Notes under the pieces: model-generated
What the model saw: only the letters and a program-made list of their open reading frames with translations
What the model was told of the DNA's origin: nothing
The model's database searches: none
Program-made: the position numbers and the translations under genes
Shown here: one piece after another, positions 3 to 53,064 of the stretch
How the letters are laid out: every line of letters starts with the position of its first letter
How positions within the stretch are numbered: the first letter of the stretch is position 1
Origin: a virus
Taxonomy: Duplodnaviria; Caudoviricetes
Strand: one strand, 5' to 3'
Virus record (IMG/VR): IMGVR_UViG_3300027759_000001
Length of the DNA: 64,000 nucleotides

Positions 3-3000
3 TGGGATTTAAGGGAAAATAAATACAGACGACAAGCAATTTTTGGCAGTAATAGTAGTGCATTGAGTGTGGATGTTAAATCATCTACCCAAAATAATGA
101 ACCGATTTATCCTTGGCCTCAAGTTATTAAAGAAACTTTAGGTGATGATAAACAAGAGAAATTTGAAATTGTTTATCCGGGAGACAAATCAATTTCAACC
201 ATGACAAAGGCGTATATTCCTGAAATATGGCCTGAAGTTGAATTTGTTGAGGAATTTATTAAAGGTTATACTGATAGGGTACCTAAAAATCCTGATTATG
301 GTGATGAGTCTAATGTGGTTACAAGACCAAATAGATTAAGTTTAAATGCTCTTGATTTCCCTGTGACAAATGAGGTATTCCAAAACAAAGAAGAGATAAA
401 ATTCTTTTATGAGATTTATGAAAGGATTATGGTTAACACTTATTATTCTAAATTAAATAGACAATCAGGATATGATGCGAGCATCTTTATGGTTGAAGCG
501 GAAGACGAAAAGATTAATATACTTAAGAGTTTAGGTAATGATAATCCATTTTTAACTCAAAAACTAAAACGATACTTAATTGATCAAAATAATTTCTTAA
601 CATTTTTAAGACACATTTCAAATCAAGGAGAAGGTGAAAGTTGGCAAAAATTCATAAGAGGAGAATTCACAATAAATTACCTTAAGAATAAAACTAACGT
701 ACCTTTTGAATTATTTAATCAACAAATTTTAACAAATGAAAGATCTCAACCAAATGTTTCATTAACTGATGAATCAAAAATAATAGACTACATAGGGAAT
801 CAAACCTCTAGTAATGAATTTGATTTTTCTGATATGTACCCTATTACTAATTTTAATTGGTGTAAGAATTATCTTGCGGATGGGGAAGCACTTCAAAATG
901 TTAATTTGGCTTATAACACTAAAGACGTATTATCTTACAATACAACACATAAAACAATTTGTAATTTTAATAACGACGATACTAACGATAAGAAAAGACC
1001 TATAACTAACTTTAACTATAAGGCTGACGTATTTAGTCAAAATATTGACACTTCTAATTTCAAAACATTCTATAATAGTAGAAAAATTGAGGAACAATTC
1101 ACAACTGAAGGTAATTTAAATTACACTAACTATGATGGATTTGTAACCGACACTCAGACAACTTCAATATTGAACACACCTTATTTTATAAATGCAATTC
1201 AAAATGGTGTGTATAATTTTAGATATAAACCAAATGATTTATCATCTTATAAACAAGCTGCATATCTATTCTTAAATAGTTTACCACTAGCAAGTCTTAG
1301 AGAAAAATATAGATCATTTAACGAACCTAATGATTTAAGTTATATCTTATCAACCATTAAAAAATTTGGAGCGGTACATAAATTACCATACGCTTGGGTT
1401 GTTAAATATGGTTCCATATGGCATAGATATAAAACTTGGAATGATACTGGTGTAGATATATTAGATGAGGTTTGGAAAGATTTTGATTATTTAGGTAATT
1501 ATGATCCCGTAACATCAGCATCAACAAAAGTTTATTCTTTGAATATTGAAGGATTACAAAACAATATAGTTTTAGAAAATACAGTAAGTGCAACACCAAA
1601 CTTAGTTGCATATAATTCAACAACTATGAATACAGGGTTTTTCCCTAAGTTGTATGATGATATGAATGTATTCTTACAAGGATTACAATTATTTTCTGGA
1701 GCAACACAATTAAATGGTACTTGTAGTATTGTTGGAACAACATTAGACGTTTATACTATTAATGATAATAACTTGGCTCCTGGCGAAATATTAGCTGGAC
1801 CAACAGTAGATGTTAATACAACTATTGTATCCCAAATAAATGGAACAACAGGAGGTGTTGGTAAATATGTTGTTGATATATCTCAAAATACATCAATATT
1901 AAATGGTACGTGTAATGTTAATGGAACAACAATGGACGTTTTAACGTTTACGGGTGGTACATTATCCGCAGGACAAATTATTTCAGGTCCAACTCTTGCT
2001 CTTGGAACTAAAATTGTTAGTCAAGTGAGTGGTACTACAGGAGGTGTTGGACAATATATTATTGATATAACCCAAACACTTACAGGAGAAAACTTTACTG
2101 TGGTTACACCAAATATTTTTTATGTTACTAATTCAGCAACAGGGGGGTATTCACAAACTGAAATCCAAACATTAATTAATGATGGTAAAATGGTGATGAC
2201 AACAAATTCATCAGGTAAAATTATTGAAATAAGTGGTTTTGATCCTAACGATAATGATAGATCATTAAAAATAACACCTTGGTCAACAATAGTTAAAACT
2301 ACTGAAGGTGATAAATATTTTATAATGCCGTCTTTTGGTTATACAAAAAATCAAACAAAAGACGAGTGTTTTAAAAATAACAAAATGAAAGTAGAGGTTT
2401 CTAGTAATCCTGCGGTCTTTAACGGATCGGTTAGATTATTTTGGGGATCACCAAACTATGGTTATTTTGATAATACTAAAATTACAAAACCAAACCCTGA
2501 TTCATATTTGAAAGAAATATTGTCGGATAAGAAAACACAACAGAATTTTTCATTGAATGGTGATATTACAAAATACGATAAAATATCGGAAATGTTTACA
2601 ACATTTGATACGGAAATATTAGATTACTTTGAACAAGAGTTCTTAAATTTTAGTAGATCAATTTACGATTTTAAGACATTGGTTCCAAGTGATAAAGATG
2701 TTGAAACTGAATCTGAAAGATCATACAAGAACTTTCAATTATTAATGAGAGAATTATTAGTTGTTGAAAAACCATCTACCCTTAATTCCGAGGGGATGAT
2801 TAATTCTGTTATAGAAAAACAAAAAACAAATTTTCAAGGGATACTAACTAATTTCTTAGAATATAATGTTGTATTGAAAATGGGTAACCCATCTATGTTT
2901 GATAGAAGAACATTCTTAACATTCTCCACTAAATTCTTAATTGATCCTGTATCGTATCAAGGGTACAATCAAGGAACAACAGGAAGTTTACCATCAAATG

Positions 3001-5444
3001 GTGGAACCATTACATTGGCTCAATCTAAAACTGCAAACCCTGAAACATGGAAAACGTTGGAGAAATATGTTGGATTTTCTGAAATACCTGAGTTAGTCTA
3101 TTCCGATAATGGGTCATATATTACGGATTTCTTTATTGATTTGAATGTTCAATTTACGGAAAAAAATGTTAAAGATTTTGCTCCGTTGATTATGTTATAT
3201 GCAACTCAGAAACTTAATAATTTCAAAGTTCCAACAAATAACGTTGTGATACCAAATCCTGTACCTACACCCGTACCAAGTCCTCAAACACCTGGTGATT
3301 TATTAACTACAGTAACACTTAAAGATACTAAAACAATTTCCGTATACAAATTTGGACCACAAAAATATGGTGTTTATAAAGATGCAACAGGAACAATTTT
3401 ATTTACAGGACAACCTGTAAGCGCATCATTATACCCATTGAATGCTCCTATTGTTGATGCGATTATTATAAGTCAATACCCCCCTACAGGTTTATCATCA
3501 AACCCTAATGATCCTCAATTTATTGTTAGTACTGTTAATGTAACTACTTCACAAGTAACAACAACTACGACAACTCTTCCTATTGTACAAAATTTAGGTA
3601 ATAGTGTAGATGGTGTTAAGTTTTATGGTCTTATGGATGAATACCTTGATAAATCAGAAACTTATTTAAAAAATGTTATTTCTAATTTAATGACAGGTGT
3701 ACGAGCTGGCTTACCAAATATTACAATAGAAGGTGATAAAGGTAATAAGTCACAACTTGAGGGAGAACAAACAAGAGTTGAGATGTGGGAAACATTCAAA
3801 GCGTTCAATGATACATGGGTTGCCGGTGGTGACTTTAAATCAAAAACAATGTTTGAAGATGTTTTATTATTTGATAGGGCAAGTAGAGACGTTGGACAAA
3901 AAGTTTATGTTGACATCTTCAAAATTAAAGATTTAATTGAAGGTTCATTATACAAAAATAATATGTTAGATATTGTATCAACAATATTATCACAAAATAA
4001 TTTTACTTATTTCCCATTACCAGCTTACGCTAATTTCTATAACGCACAAGACGCAGAAAAAAATCCTGTACCAAGAAGTGAAGGATCAACTGAATTTGCT
4101 AACTCATTTTGGGGTACGTTCTTAAATGTGGATTATAGAAATACATCACCTAAGTTTTTATGTTATTATGCAAACAAACCTAGTCAGTATGTGGATATGA
4201 AGGACAATGTTGATTATAGATTTAGAGACGATGCGTTTGACCTTAGACGAGCAAGTGATAACCCATTAGTTGAGAGTCAATCTAACAAAAAGAATTGGGA
4301 TAAATCAAATAAGGTAGTTGGATTTAATATTGATATTAGTAATCAAAATCAACAAATATTTAAAAACTTTAGTGTTGGTCAAGATGTTGGAAAACCTACC
4401 GCAGAATCTTTGGAAATGTTAAATCAAATGGCAAATCAAAGTAGAAACAGAAGTACAGGATCTCAAAATGTATCTTTATATAACTTATATAGAAATAGAA
4501 GTTACGAATGTTCTGTTGATATGTTGGGTAATGCACTTATACAACCAATGATGTATTTTAATGTAAGAAACATACCTATGTTCTCAGGTCCATATATGAT
4601 TACTTCAGTAAGTCATAATATTAGTGATGGTGAATTTAGTACAACATTTAAAGGTACAAGACAACCTTTTTATAGTTTACCTAAAATTGATAGTTTTATA
4701 CAATCTTTAAGTTTGGACATAATATCTAAATTACAGGAACAAGTAAAAGCAAATGAGGAGAAATCTAAATCATCACCTGAAAACGTAATATTCCAAAAAA
4801 ATAATGTGGTTTCAAATGTAACTGGTACTGATACAATAACTAAAAATCAAGATTGTTCTGATAAAATTAATAGTGGTTATGTTGGATATACACCATTAGA
4901 TAATCCAACATCAACTCAAATATCATATAAGGACTTTAAAAAACTACTTGGAGATAGAATTGTCGCAAGTGGAATACCAAAAGAAACCACAAGTAATGGG
5001 GTGACAAAACTTACGGATAATTTTATAAATTTATCTTATTATTTATTCTCATTTATTTATTTAGACTCGGCATCATCAAGTGGAATGAAAGCTTATGAGA
5101 ATAATTATAGTACAATTAATTTAACTGAAACTTATGGGGCGGTACTTGCCACAACAACTAATAAAAAGTACTATTGTCTTTCAAGAGGTACTAATTTAAA
5201 CATACCAATTGTGTCATTTATATCTGCTGAAAAATTTGTGGATTTTGCAATTTCTAAATTTAAAGATAAATTATCTTTAATTAATACAAATCTTACTGCT
5301 CAAGAGGATATTGTTAAATTGTATGTTACAAAGTATCCAAGTACTCAACCTGATAATGTTTATACTGAAATGACAGAACAAGATAAAAATACATTACAAA
5401 ATAAAGTAAAACAGGCAATAGATATATATAACTCATTAAATTAA
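3..5444 (+). CDS. Large virion structural protein, baseplate hub (gp27/gpD-like) region near the C-terminus; 5'-truncated
   Basis: Frame is open from the window edge (WDLRENKYRRQAIFG...), so the TTG at 63 is not the true start. YECSVDMLGNALIQPMMYF...SGPYMITSVSHNISDGEFSTTFKGTR resembles the C-terminal beta-barrel of hub/late-control-D proteins. Confidence 0.6.
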   Translation, partial: WDLRENKYRRQAIFGSNSSALSVDVKSSTQNNEPIYPWPQVIKETLGDDKQEKFEIVYPGDKSISTMTKAYIPEIWPEVEFVEEFIKGYTDRVPKNPDYGDESNVVTRPNRLSLNALDFPVTNEVFQNKEEIKFFYEIYERIMVNTYYSKLNRQSGYDASIFMVEAEDEKINILKSLGNDNPFLTQKLKRYLIDQNNFLTFLRHISNQGEGESWQKFIRGEFTINYLKNKTNVPFELFNQQILTNERSQPNVSLTDESKIIDYIGNQTSSNEFDFSDMYPITNFNWCKNYLADGEALQNVNLAYNTKDVLSYNTTHKTICNFNNDDTNDKKRPITNFNYKADVFSQNIDTSNFKTFYNSRKIEEQFTTEGNLNYTNYDGFVTDTQTTSILNTPYFINAIQNGVYNFRYKPNDLSSYKQAAYLFLNSLPLASLREKYRSFNEPNDLSYILSTIKKFGAVHKLPYAWVVKYGSIWHRYKTWNDTGVDILDEVWKDFDYLGNYDPVTSASTKVYSLNIEGLQNNIVLENTVSATPNLVAYNSTTMNTGFFPKLYDDMNVFLQGLQLFSGATQLNGTCSIVGTTLDVYTINDNNLAPGEILAGPTVDVNTTIVSQINGTTGGVGKYVVDISQNTSILNGTCNVNGTTMDVLTFTGGTLSAGQIISGPTLALGTKIVSQVSGTTGGVGQYIIDITQTLTGENFTVVTPNIFYVTNSATGGYSQTEIQTLINDGKMVMTTNSSGKIIEISGFDPNDNDRSLKITPWSTIVKTTEGDKYFIMPSFGYTKNQTKDECFKNNKMKVEVSSNPAVFNGSVRLFWGSPNYGYFDNTKITKPNPDSYLKEILSDKKTQQNFSLNGDITKYDKISEMFTTFDTEILDYFEQEFLNFSRSIYDFKTLVPSDKDVETESERSYKNFQLLMRELLVVEKPSTLNSEGMINSVIEKQKTNFQGILTNFLEYNVVLKMGNPSMFDRRTFLTFSTKFLIDPVSYQGYNQGTTGSLPSNGGTITLAQSKTANPETWKTLEKYVGFSEIPELVYSDNGSYITDFFIDLNVQFTEKNVKDFAPLIMLYATQKLNNFKVPTNNVVIPNPVPTPVPSPQTPGDLLTTVTLKDTKTISVYKFGPQKYGVYKDATGTILFTGQPVSASLYPLNAPIVDAIIISQYPPTGLSSNPNDPQFIVSTVNVTTSQVTTTTTTLPIVQNLGNSVDGVKFYGLMDEYLDKSETYLKNVISNLMTGVRAGLPNITIEGDKGNKSQLEGEQTRVEMWETFKAFNDTWVAGGDFKSKTMFEDVLLFDRASRDVGQKVYVDIFKIKDLIEGSLYKNNMLDIVSTILSQNNFTYFPLPAYANFYNAQDAEKNPVPRSEGSTEFANSFWGTFLNVDYRNTSPKFLCYYANKPSQYVDMKDNVDYRFRDDAFDLRRASDNPLVESQSNKKNWDKSNKVVGFNIDISNQNQQIFKNFSVGQDVGKPTAESLEMLNQMANQSRNRSTGSQNVSLYNLYRNRSYECSVDMLGNALIQPMMYFNVRNIPMFSGPYMITSVSHNISDGEFSTTFKGTRQPFYSLPKIDSFIQSLSLDIISKLQEQVKANEEKSKSSPENVIFQKNNVVSNVTGTDTITKNQDCSDKINSGYVGYTPLDNPTSTQISYKDFKKLLGDRIVASGIPKETTSNGVTKLTDNFINLSYYLFSFIYLDSASSSGMKAYENNYSTINLTETYGAVLATTTNKKYYCLSRGTNLNIPIVSFISAEKFVDFAISKFKDKLSLINTNLTAQEDIVKLYVTKYPSTQPDNVYTEMTEQDKNTLQNKVKQAIDIYNSLN

Positions 5445-6513: not shown

Positions 6514-7377
6514 ATGGCGACAAACAATGTTTTAGATGCAGTTTTGGCTCAGTATGAGAGTTCAAAACAAAGTGGTTCTTCTTCCACTTCAAAATTCACA
6601 CAAGAAGAAAGAATGAAAAAGTATTTCGCAGCAATCCTTAAGGATAACGAAAAACAAGGTCAACGAACAATCCGTATTTTACCTACAACTGATGGATCAT
6701 CTCCTTTTAAGGAAGTTTGGTTTCACGAAATCAATGTTGATGGTAAATGGCAGAAGTTCTATGATCCAGGAAAAAATGACAACGAACGTTCACCTTTGAA
6801 TGAGGTATATGACGAGTTAATGTCAACAGGTCGTGAATCCGACAAACAATTAGCAACACAATACAAAGCACGTAAGTTTTATATTGTTAAAGTAATTGAC
6901 CGTGACCACGAAGAAGATGGTGTTAAATTTTGGAGATTTAAACACAATTACAAACAAGAAGGAATCCTTGACAAAATTATTCCGATTTGGAAAGCAAAAG
7001 GTGATGTTACTGACTCTGATACTGGTCGTGACTTAATCCTTGAACTTACAAAGGCAAAGACTCCAAAAGGAGCAACGTATACGGTTATTCAAACTGTTAT
7101 GTATGACGATCCAGCACCAACACATGAAGATGCTGAACAATCATCAGCATGGGTCAACAATGAGTTGACTTGGGAGGACGTATACTCTAAGAAACCTGTT
7201 GAATATCTTGAATCAATTGCAAGAGGTGAAACTCCACGTTGGGACACTGACGCAGGAAAATACATCTACTCAAATAATCAAGAAGAAGAGATTTCTATGG
7301 GTGGAAGTGTAAAGTCTGAAGTTAAAAAGGCTGATCCTCAGTCTAATCAAGAAGTTGACGAAGATTTACCATTCTAA
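6514..7377 (+). CDS. Single-stranded DNA-binding protein, T4 gp32-like
   Basis: IRILP...PFKEVWFH...RKFYIVKVIDRD...VKFWRF pattern; acidic tail ending DEDLPF. Confidence 0.8.
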   Translation: MATNNVLDAVLAQYESSKQSGSSSTSKFTQEERMKKYFAAILKDNEKQGQRTIRILPTTDGSSPFKEVWFHEINVDGKWQKFYDPGKNDNERSPLNEVYDELMSTGRESDKQLATQYKARKFYIVKVIDRDHEEDGVKFWRFKHNYKQEGILDKIIPIWKAKGDVTDSDTGRDLILELTKAKTPKGATYTVIQTVMYDDPAPTHEDAEQSSAWVNNELTWEDVYSKKPVEYLESIARGETPRWDTDAGKYIYSNNQEEEISMGGSVKSEVKKADPQSNQEVDEDLPF

Positions 7378-51150: not shown

Positions 51151-51951
51151 ATGAAAGACAAAAATTTAGGGATTCCGATTAACCAAGAAGAGATTCAACA
51201 TTATCTAAAAGATATTCGTAGAATTAAAGTAATGACACCTGACAGAGAAAAAGAACTGGCGGTTAAGATGAAGGCTGATGATACTCCTAAACGTGAAAGG
51301 GAAAAAATTGAATCCGAGTTATTAGTTGGTAATTTACGTTTTGTAATTACGGTGGCCAAACAATATCAGAATCAAGGTTTGGATTTATCTGATCTAATTG
51401 CTGAAGGTAATTTGGGTTTGATGAAAGCGATTAAAAACTTTGATTGGCATAAAGATCTACGTTTTATATCATACGCAGTTTGGTGGGTTAAACAATCTAT
51501 CATCCAGTCGTTGAATGATAACGCAAGAACGATCAGACTTCCAGTTAATGTTGTTCAGGACCTACATAAGGCTAAGAAAGAAATTGCGATTACAGGTAAA
51601 GAATTAGAATTAAAGTTTTCATCATTACCGTCTATGATTGATTTGGATATGACAATCAATGATGAAGGTGACACATTGGTTGATATGATTGCTAATCCTA
51701 ACGCACTTGCTCCTGATGCGGGATTCAACACTAAAGATATGTTAAAGAACAAATTAATATCTTTATTAAATGTGTTAGATGAAAGAGAAAAAGTGATAAT
51801 TGAGGATTATTTTGGATTAAGTGGAACACCAAGAACACTTGAAGACATTGGTGGAGATTTTGGTTTAACTAAAGAACGAGTTAGACAGATTAAGGAAAGA
51901 GCCCTTAGAAGATTGAGAAATGAAAGTTCAGAACTATTTGATTACTTATAA
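51151..51951 (+). CDS. RNA polymerase sigma70 factor, Bacteroidota primary-sigma-like
   Basis: NLRFVITVAKQYQNQG, DLIAEGNLGL, FISYAVWW, TLEDIG..FGLTKERVRQI. Confidence 0.95.
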   Translation: MKDKNLGIPINQEEIQHYLKDIRRIKVMTPDREKELAVKMKADDTPKREREKIESELLVGNLRFVITVAKQYQNQGLDLSDLIAEGNLGLMKAIKNFDWHKDLRFISYAVWWVKQSIIQSLNDNARTIRLPVNVVQDLHKAKKEIAITGKELELKFSSLPSMIDLDMTINDEGDTLVDMIANPNALAPDAGFNTKDMLKNKLISLLNVLDEREKVIIEDYFGLSGTPRTLEDIGGDFGLTKERVRQIKERALRRLRNESSELFDYL

Positions 51952-51966
51952 AAAAAATAAAAAAAC

Positions 51967-52413
51967 ATGGGAAGTGTAATTGATTATATTGAATGTCCAA
52001 ATTGTAAACAAGAAGCGTTTAGCGATTTCTATTACAAAACAGGTGAAGATTATATAAATTGTGGTAGTTGTGGGTACCATTATGCTCAAACATTAAAAAG
52101 AGATGAGGATGGAAAATTTGTAACCGAAGATGGTACTGATAATTATAACTTTGATAATCTTATTATGGAAGTTTCGGAACTTAAAAATCCATTTGGTTCG
52201 TATCGTTTAAAAGTTTATCAGTCACCGGCAACTCAAGTTGGGTCATTTGAAACTGAGGAACAATATAATGAGTTTAAGTTACAAATTGAAGGGGATGTTG
52301 AAATTGAATTCTGTTCTGTGTCAAGATTTGTTGATGGTGAAATCAAAGTTGAAATGATAATTGATAATGGACCTAAGGTTGATTCTGCTGGATTTACAAT
52401 TGAGGATCGTTAA
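51967..52413 (+). CDS. Zinc-finger hypothetical protein
   Basis: CPNC...CGSC. Confidence 0.75.
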   Translation: MGSVIDYIECPNCKQEAFSDFYYKTGEDYINCGSCGYHYAQTLKRDEDGKFVTEDGTDNYNFDNLIMEVSELKNPFGSYRLKVYQSPATQVGSFETEEQYNEFKLQIEGDVEIEFCSVSRFVDGEIKVEMIIDNGPKVDSAGFTIEDR

Positions 52414-52424
52414 TTTAAAAAAGA

Positions 52425-52456
52425 TTTGGCAGATTGAAATAAAATACTTATATTTG
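52425..52456 (+). promoter_or_regulatory. Bacteroidota-type promoter TTTG-20-TATATTTG (also reads TTGGCA-17-TATATT)
   Basis: Upstream of a gene-free GC-rich tract. Confidence 0.7.
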
Positions 52457-52462
52457 TAAGAC

Positions 52463-52602
52463 AAACGAAAAGGGTTGAACCGAGATTACCCTTACAACTC
52501 GGCGGAATGAGACACGATGTTCTCTGGGTGAAAATCCTCAATCTTACTCGTGATGTAAGATGAAATTACACTCCCCCATTGGTACCAGTGGGGGTTTATT
52601 TT
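52463..52602 (+). ncRNA. Candidate structured small RNA (H-type pseudoknot plus hairpins)
   Basis: Flanked by promoter and terminator; 44% GC (62/140 nt in 52461-52600); AAGGGT/ACCCTT crossed by CCGAG/CTCGG. Confidence 0.55.
52573..52602 (+). terminator. Rho-independent terminator, possibly bidirectional
   Basis: CCCCCATTG-gtac-CAGTGGGGG followed by TTTATTTT. Confidence 0.9.
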
Positions 52603-53015
52603 GCGGTAATAACTAGTTGACCTCTACCGACATAAAAATCAGACTTCCGCATAACGGTTTTAATAATAAGATTAAATTCGTAAGGATTAACTTCTTGTAT
52701 TAGAATTGGAATATTAAGAAGGTTTGATTCATCTTTAATTACAAACTCAACACCATCATATAATTCACCAATGACAATATATTGTACGATATCATCCTTT
52801 ACCTTATCTACTGATTTTAAGATATCATAATCTCTAATTGCATCACCACCTTCTGAAAAATGTCTTGTTTTTCTCGTTTCCGCATGGGACTTCATTCCAG
52901 GTACATTTCCACGTTGGTATCTTAAATTCATGGTAACAGTAAGGTTTGCTTTGATCTCAGCAATCTTCTTTTCTAAGATTAAAATTTTACGTATTGATTC
53001 TCTAAGTAATGACAT
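52596..53015 (-). CDS. Hypothetical protein (139 aa), possible head-targeted protein
   Basis: N-terminal LLRESIRKILILE; TATTTATA on the minus strand at 53021-53028. Confidence 0.7.
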   Translation of the reverse strand: MSLLRESIRKILILEKKIAEIKANLTVTMNLRYQRGNVPGMKSHAETRKTRHFSEGGDAIRDYDILKSVDKVKDDIVQYIVIGELYDGVEFVIKDESNLLNIPILIQEVNPYEFNLIIKTVMRKSDFYVGRGQLVITAK

Positions 53016-53020
53016 AATTA

Positions 53021-53047
53021 TATAAATACCTTATATTGATATTTATA
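53021..53047. promoter_or_regulatory. Back-to-back putative late promoters (TATTTATA minus 53021-53028, plus 53040-53047)
   Basis: Divergent gene pair, each with the motif. Confidence 0.55.
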
Positions 53048-53064
53048 AATACAAAACAATTACT

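What the first reader, a model, noticed from the sequence alone, without database searches (positions are those of the whole stretch)
52463..52602. Independently transcribed, pseudoknotted small RNA of no family I recognise
Seen: a 140-nt tract of 44% GC (other spacers are strongly AT-rich) lies between a host-type promoter (52425-52456) and a strong terminator (52573-52602). It has an H-type pseudoknot: AAGGGT 52470-75 pairs with ACCCTT 52488-93, crossed by CCGAG 52480-84 with CTCGG 52498-502 (loops of 4, 3 and 4 nt). Downstream are a GGGU-GAAA-AUCC tetraloop hairpin (52526-37) and an ATCTTAC/GTAAGAT stem (52541-61). An 18-codon ORF (MRHDVLWVKILNLTRDVR, 52507-52563) starts 4 nt after the pseudoknot and stops at the end of the last stem, loosely like the PK1-tag layout of tmRNA. 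Inference: an early-expressed functional RNA, or a structured leader driving a micropeptide.
Basis: partly seen in the sequence, partly recalled or inferred. Interest (0 to 1): 0.72.

Follow-up and report, generated by a model that had tools for sequence, protein, structure and literature searches.

The report
Phage pseudoknotted small RNA family
This is a real, strongly conserved structured small RNA of about 140 nt from uncultured freshwater Bacteroidetes phages that matches no family in the RNA database; it often lies tail-to-tail with a small RelE-like RNase gene whose relatives always have some small-RNA gene beside them, so the two probably work as a pair.

Summary
Window 52461-52602 (+) carries a Bacteroidetes-type promoter (TTTG ... 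TAtaTTTG), a structured core of about 110 nt at 45% GC against about 30% in the flanks, and an intrinsic terminator.

- **Family:** it matches nothing in Rfam 15. I collected 123 distinct homologues from viral and metagenome contigs and two Bacteroidetes MAG contigs.
- **Structure:** three hairpins covary strongly. P1 has one covarying pair. The pseudoknot stem is almost invariant, with two compensatory and seven wobble changes.
- **ORF:** the 18-codon ORF is not conserved, because 41 of 123 homologues lack the ATG. The tmRNA analogy fails.

The new result concerns the convergent 139-aa neighbour (52596-53015, minus strand).

- Its predicted fold is closest to RelE/HigB/ParE/RegB-type RNases, at Z 5-6.
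- All 38 homologue loci with enough downstream DNA have a convergent small-RNA-like region directly after the stop codon.
- These RNAs fall into at least four unrelated classes. This RNA is class A.
- The link is not reciprocal: about half of class A RNAs, including those in two near-complete genomes, have no such RNase.

My best reading, at about 0.4, is an RNA partner of the RNase, either an antitoxin-like inhibitor or a cofactor. The main rival is a stand-alone phage sRNA with another target.

First readers of this scan noted the same element in four other genomes.

The parts
52425..52456 (+). Bacteroidetes-type promoter: -33 TTTG (52425-52428) and -7 TATATTTG (52449-52456)
   Evidence: Pattern match and sigma-70 scan 10/12. 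Conserved in L005, L006, L082, L059 and L080. Functionally equivalent promoters stand in front of divergent copies L083, L087, L098 and L114. 85% identical to tRNA-gene promoters in LR745206.1.
52461..52602 (+). Class A small RNA, about 140 nt. The 5' end is inferred from the promoter and the 3' end from the terminator.
   Evidence: Covariance model R1 scores 120 bits, E 5e-28, at 52468-52575, and it is the only copy in the window. 123 distinct homologues. RNA-library contigs from four studies cover it.
52470..52493 (+). P1: AAGGGT (52470-52475) pairs with ACCCTT (52488-52493)
   Evidence: The GGGU/ACCC core is invariant. The next pair out switches A-U to U-A in 50 versus 47 sequences; the outermost pair is weak.
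52480..52502 (+). Pseudoknot stem: CCGAG (52480-52484) pairs with CTCGG (52498-52502), crossing P1. Loops are UGAA, AUU and ACAA.
   Evidence: 99.8% of cells paired. C-G to U-A in the L118/L186/L249 lineage; G-C to U-A in L180/L278; A-U to G-U in 6 distinct sequences; G-C to G-U in 1; otherwise invariant.
52509..52524 (+). P3 hairpin: GAGA/TCTC with the conserved loop CACGAnGU
   Evidence: Three pairs carry 43-57 double changes each, GAGA/UCUC to GGGA/UCCC to GGUG/CACC.
52526..52538 (+). P4 hairpin: GGG/CCT with the 7-nt loop UGAAAAU
   Evidence: The closing pair is A-U in 68, G-U in 32 and G-C in 20 sequences; two G-C pairs are near-invariant. The stem is lengthened in L083 and L098/L123.
52541..52561 (+). 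P5 hairpin: ATCTTAC/GTAAGAT
   Evidence: Six of eight pairs have compensatory changes, for example C-G in 53 against U-A in 46 sequences. Already visible against G001, where CTTAC/GTAAG becomes CTTGTC/GACAAG.
52562..52572 (+). Conserved single-stranded linker GAAAYUACAC
   Evidence: Near-invariant columns in A2 and A6. No excess of complementary sites in the window.
52573..52602 (+). Intrinsic terminator: 9-bp stem, GTAC loop and T-run. The T-run overlaps the stop codon of the convergent gene.
   Evidence: Terminator scan. Compensatory changes occur in the stem. One RNA contig of run X2 ends at 52598.
52596..53015 (-). Convergent 139-aa protein (P0001), predicted RelE/BECR-fold RNase-like; candidate partner of the RNA
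   Evidence: AF2 model with pLDDT 77. The top structural matches are almost all RelE/HigB/ParE/YoeB/colicin E5/BrnT/RegB/CdiA-CT RNases, Z 4.8-6.2. No Pfam, PADLOC or PHROG function. Adjacent in 48 of 98 class A loci. All 38 homologue loci with enough downstream DNA carry a convergent small-RNA-like region.

Best explanation
The element is a gene for a stable, compactly folded small RNA of about 140 nt. It belongs to a lineage of large, uncultured freshwater phages whose promoters are of the Bacteroidetes type.

The RNA consists of an H-type pseudoknot (P1 plus the crossing CCGAG/CUCGG stem, with conserved A-rich loops), three hairpins (P3, P4, P5), a conserved single-stranded linker and an intrinsic terminator. 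In this phage it is made from its own strong host-type promoter. In many relatives it is the 3' end of the sigma-factor transcript.

I propose that it works in trans as the RNA partner of the RelE-fold endoribonuclease encoded tail-to-tail with it (52596-53015, minus strand). The folded RNA would bind that protein and hold it in check, or direct it, in the way the RNA antitoxin of a type III toxin-antitoxin pair does. Because the two genes converge, any RNase transcript that reads past its stop codon would also be antisense to the RNA. Copies without an adjacent RNase would then be orphan partners, or would serve a second target that the RNase exploits.

Shown: the RNA family, its structure, its promoter and terminator, and the genetic linkage.
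Inferred: RNase activity of the neighbour, binding between the two, and the direction of control.
For: 1. It is a real structured RNA.
- No Rfam match.
- 123 distinct homologues. 93% of cells are paired against 85% in shuffles, with 347 double-change cells against 123 expected, and 0 of 500 shuffles reach the observed covariation score.
- The plus strand folds better than shuffles (z -2.5); the minus strand does not.

2. It is an independent gene. Bacteroidetes-type promoters stand about 20 nt upstream in this window and in divergent copies with different neighbours.

3. It is linked to the RNase.
- The 139-aa neighbour has a RelE/BECR-like predicted fold.
- The tail-to-tail pair persists in divergent lineages that lack the sigma gene: 14 of 98 loci, including L083, L098 and L123.
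- I fetched 40 loci through the protein alone. All 38 with enough downstream DNA have a convergent small-RNA-like region right after the stop. Every one printed except L317 shows a Bacteroidetes-type promoter.
- Those RNAs fall into classes A, A+C, B, C and D, which share no detectable homology.
- A distant family member (L336) has yet another one.
- Class B is itself structured, with 9 of 34 pairs compensatory.

4. In complete genomes the classes replace one another at the same position. G010 has class B plus the RNase and no class A.

5. RNA-library contigs from four studies cover the RNA.

6. The T4 review PMC3014915 notes that the RelE-like phage RNase RegB might have an undiscovered antitoxin-like partner.
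Against: - Half of the class A RNAs have no adjacent RNase: 37 of 98 have nothing, and 13 of 98 have an unrelated 179-aa ORF.
- Two near-complete genomes (93% and 99%) carry the RNA once and no detectable RNase, with a working positive control. The RNA therefore has, or can have, a function without this protein.
- The fold match of the protein is only middling (Z 5-6) and there is no sequence-level match to any RNase family.
- Known type III systems have tandem-repeat RNAs upstream of the toxin on the same strand and ToxN-type toxins. None of that applies here.
- No binding or activity data exist. Contigs cannot show transcript ends or strand.
Confidence: 0.4

Rival explanations
1. It is a stand-alone phage regulatory or decoy RNA whose folded pseudoknot core binds something other than the neighbouring protein, such as a host protein (for example RNA polymerase, the ribosome or S1, or a host nuclease) or a small ligand. 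The RNase gene sits beside it only through shared ancestry of the locus, or because small-RNA genes are convenient insertion points.
For: The RNA is present without the RNase in 37-50 of 98 loci and in two near-complete genomes. The pseudoknot core and several loops are far more conserved than the hairpins, as in protein- or ligand-binding aptamers. In most relatives it follows the sigma-factor gene directly.
Against: This does not explain why every RNase homologue examined has some convergent small RNA of unrelated sequence. It also does not explain why the pair persists where all other neighbours differ. No gene lies downstream on the same strand, so it is not a classical riboswitch. No Rfam aptamer matches.
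Confidence: 0.3
2. It is a type I-like antisense regulator. Convergent transcription makes the RNA complementary to the 3' untranslated end of the RNase mRNA, and duplex formation triggers decay or blocks expression. The conserved fold serves only stability.
For: The RNase stop codon lies inside the T-run of the RNA's terminator. On the minus strand the hairpin is followed by a poor U-run, so read-through into the antisense of the RNA gene is plausible. The tail-to-tail layout is constant at 127-140 nt, or 189-191 nt in the A+C hybrids.
Against: Antisense action needs no conserved pseudoknot, no conserved loops and no covariation across 123 sequences. The RNA also occurs without any convergent gene. 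Known type I toxins are small hydrophobic peptides, not 139-aa soluble proteins (my knowledge of the class).
Confidence: 0.1
3. It is a cis-acting 3' element of the sigma-factor operon: a structure that stabilises the transcript, blocks exonucleases or directs 3' end processing. In this phage it acquired a promoter secondarily.
For: In about half of the relatives it begins 2-4 nt after the stop codon of the sigma gene or of another ORF and ends in the terminator. An RNA contig from a relative in run X2 joins the upstream ORF to the RNA without the promoter.
Against: Divergent copies have their own promoters and no sigma gene upstream. A terminator hairpin alone would protect a 3' end, whereas 110 nt of conserved tertiary-type structure is far more than that needs.
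Confidence: 0.1
4. It is a self-cleaving ribozyme, or a leader for the 18-codon micropeptide (tmRNA-like).
For: The fold is compact and pseudoknotted with conserved unpaired nucleotides. The ORF exists in this window.
Against: No ribozyme or tmRNA model matches, even at E up to 10. The ATG is absent in 41 of 123 homologues and the frame is broken by indels. Variation follows base pairing, not codons.
Confidence: 0.03

Closest known systems
Type III toxin-antitoxin systems (ToxIN, CptIN, TenpIN; PMC3401426, PMC5086642)
   Same: A small endoribonuclease gene is tightly linked to a gene for a structured, pseudoknot-forming non-coding RNA with its own terminator. The RNA classes differ between protein clades. 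One of the RNA classes found next to homologues (class D, L325-L326) even has two direct repeats.
   Different: The protein here has a RelE/BECR-like predicted fold, not the ToxN/Kid-like fold, and gets no PADLOC hit. The class A RNA has no tandem repeats. The genes converge instead of lying RNA-terminator-toxin on one strand. The module is in phage genomes, and the RNA often occurs alone.
Phage T4 RegB endoribonuclease and the RelE/YoeB family (PDB 2hx6; PMC3014915)
   Same: The neighbour is a phage-encoded basic protein of similar size (139 against 153 aa). It has an extra N-terminal helix in front of a RelE-like helix-sheet core, and a structural match at Z 4.8 over 91 residues.
   Different: There is no sequence similarity (hhalign probability 0.2). 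No partner RNA is known for RegB. The catalytic residues cannot be aligned.
Type I toxin-antitoxin pairs with 3'-overlapping convergent RNAs (for example txpA/RatA and bsrG/SR4 of Bacillus prophage regions; recalled from the literature, not checked here)
   Same: Tail-to-tail gene pair in which a small RNA gene and a protein gene share or overlap their 3' ends, in mobile-element DNA.
   Different: Those toxins are short membrane peptides, and the RNAs act by long antisense duplexes without conserved tertiary structure.
Phage-encoded antitoxin mimic (pseudo-ToxI of phage PhiTE; PMC3594212)
   Same: A phage carries an RNA that can neutralise an RNase, which could explain orphan copies of the RNA.
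   Different: Pseudo-ToxI is a repeat array homologous to a host antitoxin. No host homologue of this RNA was found in 185,579 species genomes beyond two phage-like MAG contigs.
Catalogue of about 10,000 candidate structured RNAs from IMG/VR (PMC10690425)
   Same: Same data source and the same kind of object (covarying phage RNA motifs, many with terminators). This motif may well be among them.
   Different: The paper's text names no such motif, and its supplementary files are not held here, so overlap could not be checked.

Membership tests
Any Rfam 15 family | Covariance-model score at or above the family's gathering threshold | tested here: not met
   No hits over the whole window. In 52300-52750 at E up to 10 there were only chance snoRNA, NsiR1 and promoter hits, 13-21 bits against thresholds of 39-55.
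tmRNA | tRNA-like acceptor/T-arm domain plus a tag reading frame | tested here: not met
   ARAGORN finds no tmRNA or tRNA in the window. The ORF's ATG is missing in 41 of 123 homologues.
H-type pseudoknot | Two stems in which the loop of the first pairs with sequence 3' of it, both supported by comparative data | tested here: met
   P1 has 3 invariant G-C pairs, a U-A pair kept in 120 of 123 sequences and one pair with an A-U/U-A swap (50 versus 47). The second stem is 99.8% paired, with two compensatory pairs (each in one lineage) and seven wobble-compatible single changes. Support for the second stem is real but thin, because it is nearly invariant.
Bacteroidetes primary-sigma promoter | -33 TTTG and -7 TAnnTTTG at about 19-21 nt spacing upstream of the transcript | tested here: met
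   TTTG-N20-TATATTTG at 52425-52456. The same layout stands before divergent copies and before tRNA genes of LR745206.1. Promoter activity itself is not testable here.
Intrinsic terminator | GC-rich hairpin followed by a U-run | tested here: met
   9-bp stem with 6 G-C pairs plus TTTATTTT. The stem covaries.
Type III toxin-antitoxin system | Antitoxin made of tandem direct repeats (about 34-37 nt) upstream of the toxin on the same strand | tested here: not met
   No tandem repeat in 52380-52680. The genes are convergent.
Type III toxin-antitoxin system | Toxin of the ToxN/AbiQ/CptN/TenpN family | tested here: not met
   No PADLOC or Pfam hit for seven family members. The best structural matches are RelE/ParE-superfamily and other BECR RNases, not ToxN-type.
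Type III toxin-antitoxin system | The RNA binds and inhibits the toxin protein | not testable with these tools
   Needs co-expression and binding assays.
RelE/ParE (BECR-fold) RNase superfamily, for the neighbour | Two helices packed on a four-stranded antiparallel sheet, with sequence or profile match and catalytic residues | tested here: inconclusive
   About 30 of the top 50 structural rows are RelE, HigB, ParE, YoeB, YafQ, BrnT, colicin E5, CdiA-CT or RegB, at Z 3.0-6.2 over 63-91 residues. There is no Pfam or PDB profile hit. E15 and H44 are invariant and R51 near-invariant in A4, but they are not mapped to an active site.
T4 RegB family, for the neighbour | Sequence homology to RegB with catalytic His48/His68 | tested here: not met
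   hhalign probability 0.2. There is only fold-level likeness, Z 4.8.
Type I toxin-antitoxin system | Small hydrophobic toxin peptide whose mRNA is bound by an antisense RNA | tested here: not met
   The partner is a 139-aa soluble-looking protein. Only the 3' ends overlap, by a few bases, in the annotated parts.

The most novel reading that the evidence does not exclude
A previously unrecognised kind of two-gene RNA-protein module in phages: a RelE-fold endoribonuclease that always travels with a convergently transcribed, non-repetitive, tertiary-folded small RNA. The RNA comes in at least four or five unrelated classes and acts as the RNase's antitoxin or specificity subunit. Class A RNAs also circulate as orphan 'immunity' RNAs in related phages.
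Probability: 0.3. Interest if true: 0.85.

Novelty: new variant of a known kind. Interest (0 to 1): 0.72.

Why it matters
Structured non-coding RNAs of phages are almost unexplored, and very few have a known partner.

If the RNA controls the RelE-like RNase, three things would follow:
- RNA-antitoxin logic would extend to a different toxin fold and gene layout.
- It would suggest an answer to the old question of whether phage RNases of the RegB type have dedicated inhibitors.
- It would give a set of interchangeable RNA-protein pairs useful for studying RNA-protein recognition.

If the RNA acts alone, its near-invariant core suggests an unknown host target of freshwater Bacteroidetes phages.

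Tried and rejected
- **Rfam:** gathering threshold on the whole window and E up to 10 locally gave nothing. Classes B, C and D also gave nothing. The only hit was an unrelated DUF805 RNA in L173.
- **tRNA/tmRNA scan:** none.
- **18-codon ORF and a second ORF-like reading from ATGAAA (52561):** rejected, because variation follows base pairs and the ATG is not conserved.
- **Alternative folds** suggested by the single-sequence MFE and by other first readers: an outer stem GGUUGA/UCAAUC, and UUACCC with GGGUGA. The outer stem is 95% compatible and the second helix 86%, but neither has compensatory changes and both are indistinguishable from shuffles. The outer stem also competes with the well-supported P5.
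- **Seed-target search** for the complement of the conserved linker: 8 sites against 6.3 expected.
- **Second copy in the window:** only a 14.6-bit hit inside coding sequence at 7158-7269.
- **179-aa ORF upstream of some copies** as a distant RNase relative: hhalign probability 0.3, so treated as unrelated.
- **Sequence link of the neighbour** to T4 RegB or to any PDB chain: none.
- **ESM Atlas look-alikes:** none.
- **Cultured phages:** no copy of the RNA. The only protein hit is a weak one in uncultured LR745206.1.
- **Bacterial genomes:** two phage-like Bacteroidetes MAG contigs and two chance matches in Rhodobacterales.
- **Context of distant protein relatives:** the contigs were mostly too short.
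- **RNA-library contigs:** they show presence only. They give no ends, strand or level, and DNA carry-over cannot be excluded. One contig starts upstream of the promoter.
- **GTATTTATA upstream of the RNase** as a phage-specific promoter: not enriched as a 9-mer. The shorter TATTTAT is enriched before ORF starts, but that is confounded by AT-rich spacers.

Full report
**1. What is in the window**

Positions 52414-52595 are the spacer between two convergent genes: a plus-strand 148-aa ORF (51967-52413) and a minus-strand 139-aa ORF (52596-53015).

Upstream on the plus strand lie an SbcC-like gene, a DUF6576 protein and a sigma-70-family factor (51151-51951). The window is therefore phage DNA.

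The spacer holds three features:
- TTTG-N20-TATATTTG at 52425-52456. The sigma-70 scan also scores this 10/12.
- A tract of 45% GC in a region of about 30% GC.
- A 9-bp GC-rich hairpin with a T-run at 52573-52602.

The plus strand folds better than shuffled sequence (z -2.5); the minus strand does not (z -0.7).

**2. It matches no known RNA family**

- Rfam 15 gives no hit at gathering thresholds over the whole window. It gives only chance hits at E up to 10 locally.
- ARAGORN finds no tRNA or tmRNA.

**3. It is a large, conserved family**

I collected homologues in three ways:
- The sigma protein retrieved 80 related IMG/VR loci, and blastn found the RNA in 44 of them.
- The same pattern over one genome for each of 185,579 species found only two Bacteroidetes MAG contigs plus two chance matches.

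After removing duplicates and chance hits there are 123 distinct sequences (alignment A6). All sources are freshwater, lake or sediment metagenomes. No cultured phage holds the RNA.

A covariance model built from A6 scores the window copy at 120 bits and finds it once per window. It also finds it once in each of the four genome records that hold it; two of those are 93% and 99% complete.

**4. Structure**

I counted pairs on A6 for the model P1 + pseudoknot + P3 + P4 + P5.

| Measure | Observed | Control |
|---|---|---|
| Cells forming a standard pair | 93.4% | 85.0% in column shuffles; 35-48% with partners slid by 1-3 columns |
| Cells with changes on both sides | 347 | 123 expected |
| Shuffles reaching the covariation score | 0 of 500 | |

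Support for each helix:
- **P3:** three pairs with 43-57 double changes each.
- **P5:** six of eight pairs compensatory.
- **P4:** closing pair A-U in 68, G-U in 32 and G-C in 20 sequences.
- **Terminator stem:** covaries.
- **P1:** three invariant G-C pairs, a U-A pair kept in 120 of 123 sequences, and one pair that swaps A-U with U-A (50 versus 47 sequences).
- **Pseudoknot stem CCGAG/CUCGG:** almost invariant. The exceptions fit pairing:
 - C-G to U-A in the L118/L186/L249 lineage.
 - G-C to U-A in L180/L278, a somewhat degenerate copy that also has one mismatch.
 - A-U to G-U in six distinct sequences.
 - G-C to G-U in one.

The pseudoknot is therefore supported but rests on few events.

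I also tested two alternative helices proposed by the MFE fold and by other first readers. The outer stem is 95% compatible and the second helix 86%. Neither has compensatory changes, and both are indistinguishable from shuffles. The outer stem also clashes with P5, whose columns truly covary.

Two further points:
- The pseudoknot core, its three loops, the P3 loop (C..GA.G) and the linker GAAAYUACAC are much more conserved than the stems. That is typical of RNAs that form tertiary contacts or bind a partner.

**5. The ORF and the tmRNA idea fail**

- The T of the ATG is absent in 41 of 123 sequences (the GAA-GGUGCC variants).
- One-base indels shift the frame.
- Substitutions follow base pairing rather than codons.

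**6. How it is expressed**

This window, its near relatives and several divergent copies have a TTTG/TAnnTTTG promoter whose -7 box ends about 14 to 25 nt upstream of P1. The divergent copies include L083/L089, L087, L098/L123/L154 and L114. The window's promoter is 85% identical to promoters in front of tRNA genes in the 635-kb uncultured phage LR745206.1.

In about half of the relatives there is no promoter. The RNA then starts 2-4 nt after the stop codon of the sigma gene, or of the 148-aa or a 179-aa ORF. The constant unit is the RNA plus its terminator, supplied either by its own promoter or as the tail of an upstream transcript.

RNA-library contigs from four studies cover it:
- One is a 187-nt contig, 100% identical, at 52380-52566.
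- Another, from a relative without the promoter, ends at 52598.

These are assembled contigs, so they cannot prove transcription, strand or ends.

**7. The neighbour is the main clue**

The convergent 139-aa protein (P0001) has no Pfam, PHROG or PADLOC assignment.

Its AlphaFold model has pLDDT 77 and consists of an N-terminal helix followed by a helix-sheet core. It finds no significant Foldseek match in the PDB. In the exhaustive VIA search, however, about 30 of the top 50 rows are RNases of the RelE/ParE superfamily or related BECR-fold toxins. These include CdiA-CT, RelE, HigB, ParE, YoeB, YafQ, BrnT, colicin E5 and T4 RegB, at Z 3.0-6.2. Such Z values are middling; the consistency of the list is what counts.

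- E15 and H44 are invariant and R51 is near-invariant in the 17-sequence alignment A4.
- There is no sequence-level link to RegB or to any PDB chain.
- The family is broad: 247 clusters at 50% identity.

**8. Linkage, tested from both sides**

*From the RNA.* Among 98 non-redundant class A loci with enough flanking DNA:

| Neighbour | Loci |
|---|---|
| This RNase adjacent | 48 |
| Of those, no sigma gene nearby | 14 |
| Unrelated 179-aa ORF upstream (hhalign probability 0.3) | 13 |
| Neither | 37 |

Two near-complete genomes (93% and 99%) have the RNA and no detectable RNase. The same search found the RNase in 4 of 4 positive controls.

*From the protein.* I fetched 40 loci by the protein alone. 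All 38 with enough downstream DNA have a convergent non-coding stretch immediately after the stop codon. Every one printed except L317 shows a Bacteroidetes-type promoter. The RNA differs between loci:

| Class | Loci | Features |
|---|---|---|
| A | 16 | This RNA |
| A + C hybrid | 4 | Class A core with a class C 3' extension |
| B | 14 | About 130 nt; includes the variant L324 |
| C | 1 | |
| D | 3 | In L325 and L326, two repeats of ACGAUU(C/A/U)AGAUACAA |

- Model R1 does not detect classes B, C or D, and Rfam does not know them.
- Class B is itself structured, with 9 of 34 pairs compensatory among 8 distinct sequences.
- A distant family member on an 800-bp contig (L336) again has a promoter, an RNA of about 85 nt and a terminator, convergent with its stop codon.
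- In the complete genome G010 the RNase comes with class B and there is no class A.

So the protein appears never to occur without a small RNA gene, whereas class A RNA can occur without the protein.

**9. Interpretation**

The one-sided dependence is what a toxin/antitoxin-like or enzyme/RNA-subunit relation predicts: the RNase always has an RNA, the RNA classes are interchangeable, and orphan RNAs exist. My best reading, at about 0.4, is therefore that the RNA is the trans-acting partner of the RelE-fold RNase.

This reading works like a type III toxin-antitoxin pair but is not a member of that family. The toxin fold is different, class A has no tandem repeats, and the genes converge.

The T4 literature explicitly raises the possibility of an unknown anti-RegB partner for a RelE-like phage RNase (PMC3014915). 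Phage-encoded RNAs that neutralise RNases are also known (PMC3594212).

The rivals, with my odds:
- A stand-alone sRNA with another target (0.3). It is favoured by the orphan copies and the near-invariant core.
- A type I-like antisense effect from the 3' overlap (0.1).
- A cis-acting 3' element of the sigma operon (0.1).
- A ribozyme or micropeptide leader (0.03).

A search for targets complementary to the conserved linker gave nothing above chance.

**10. Novelty**

- No Rfam family matches.
- The text of the 2023 IMG/VR catalogue of candidate structured RNAs names no such motif, and its supplements could not be checked here.
- First readers of this scan noted the same element in four other genomes. 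One noted a BECR-like gene between two structured RNAs. Those notes were untested; I tested their fold proposals.

I rate the RNA itself as certainly real and new as a family. I rate the module as a new variant of RNA-protein toxin-antitoxin-like systems, still unproven.

Noticed in passing
L308, L313-L315, L317, L322-L324, L329, L330 (about 130 nt convergent with the RNase homologue; for example L330 about 2912-3060, minus strand): Class B small RNA: GGGUUAAAAGUCAC ... GAAGACGAUUCAGAUAC ... CCUACUUAAUCAACCC. It has a multi-stem fold with 9 of 34 pairs compensatory and no Rfam match. It replaces class A at the same place after the sigma gene.
   Followed up: partly
L325-L327 (class D), L328 (class C), L098/L123/L154 and L331-L334 (class A + C hybrids): Further promoter-driven small RNAs next to RNase homologues. 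In L325 and L326, class D has two direct repeats of ACGAUU(C/A/U)AGAUACAA plus a terminator. Class C (GACAACCGAUAAGUUCACAAG...) also occurs as a 3' extension fused to a class A core.
   Followed up: partly
L336 415-520 (minus strand): A distant relative of the RNase (P0100, 128 aa) is followed by a TAtaTTTG promoter, an RNA of about 85 nt and a terminator, convergent with its stop codon. This is one more RNA class.
   Followed up: no
L001 (LR745206.1, 417034-423087), locus positions about 2700-3300; also LR745206.1 315352-315612: The 635-kb uncultured phage uses near-identical TTTGG...TAtcTTTGTAAGAC promoters in front of individual tRNA-like genes. It also has a weak (35% identity, E 7e-3) match to the RNase family elsewhere in the genome.
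   Followed up: no
L010, L011, L015, L023, L024, L058, L065 (directly after the sigma stop codon); L062 and L047 likewise: The site after the sigma gene is a hot spot. Some relatives carry a gene there that starts MNVLSLFDGMSCGQIALN (it looks like a C5 cytosine methyltransferase; not tested). L062 has a promoter followed by another long non-coding, structured-looking stretch, and L047 has a promoter-like stretch followed by non-coding DNA.
   Followed up: no
L173 6484-6553 (minus strand): A DUF805 RNA motif (RF03081, 66 bits) lies about 1 kb from the class A RNA on a Bacteroidetes MAG contig.
   Followed up: no
window 53021-53052 (minus strand), 53040 and 15073 (plus strand): TATTTATA lies 4-28 nt upstream of four ORF starts, including two copies before the RNase ATG. 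TATTTAT is enriched before ORF starts (11 against about 1 expected, confounded by AT-rich spacers). It may be a phage-specific promoter or initiation motif, which would mean the RNase and the RNA are transcribed by different promoter types.
   Followed up: partly
P0161 (379 aa; Logan contig of 3006 bp): One family member has the RNase-like domain fused behind a Zeta-toxin/AAA_33 P-loop kinase domain. It lies next to a T4 gp13-like gene.
   Followed up: no
window 51967-52413 (+): The 148-aa ORF between the sigma gene and the RNA has a weak Lar-like zinc-ribbon hit (E 2e-3). It is an optional insert, absent in most relatives, where the RNA abuts the sigma gene.
   Followed up: no
L050, L097, L136 (ORF ending at the first base of the RNA): A conserved 178-179-aa protein (MNLLSVLKNI...STHHQRKERFG...) sits directly upstream of the RNA on the same strand in 13 of 98 loci. 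It has no detectable relation to the RNase family and only a weak MuF_C hit.
   Followed up: partly
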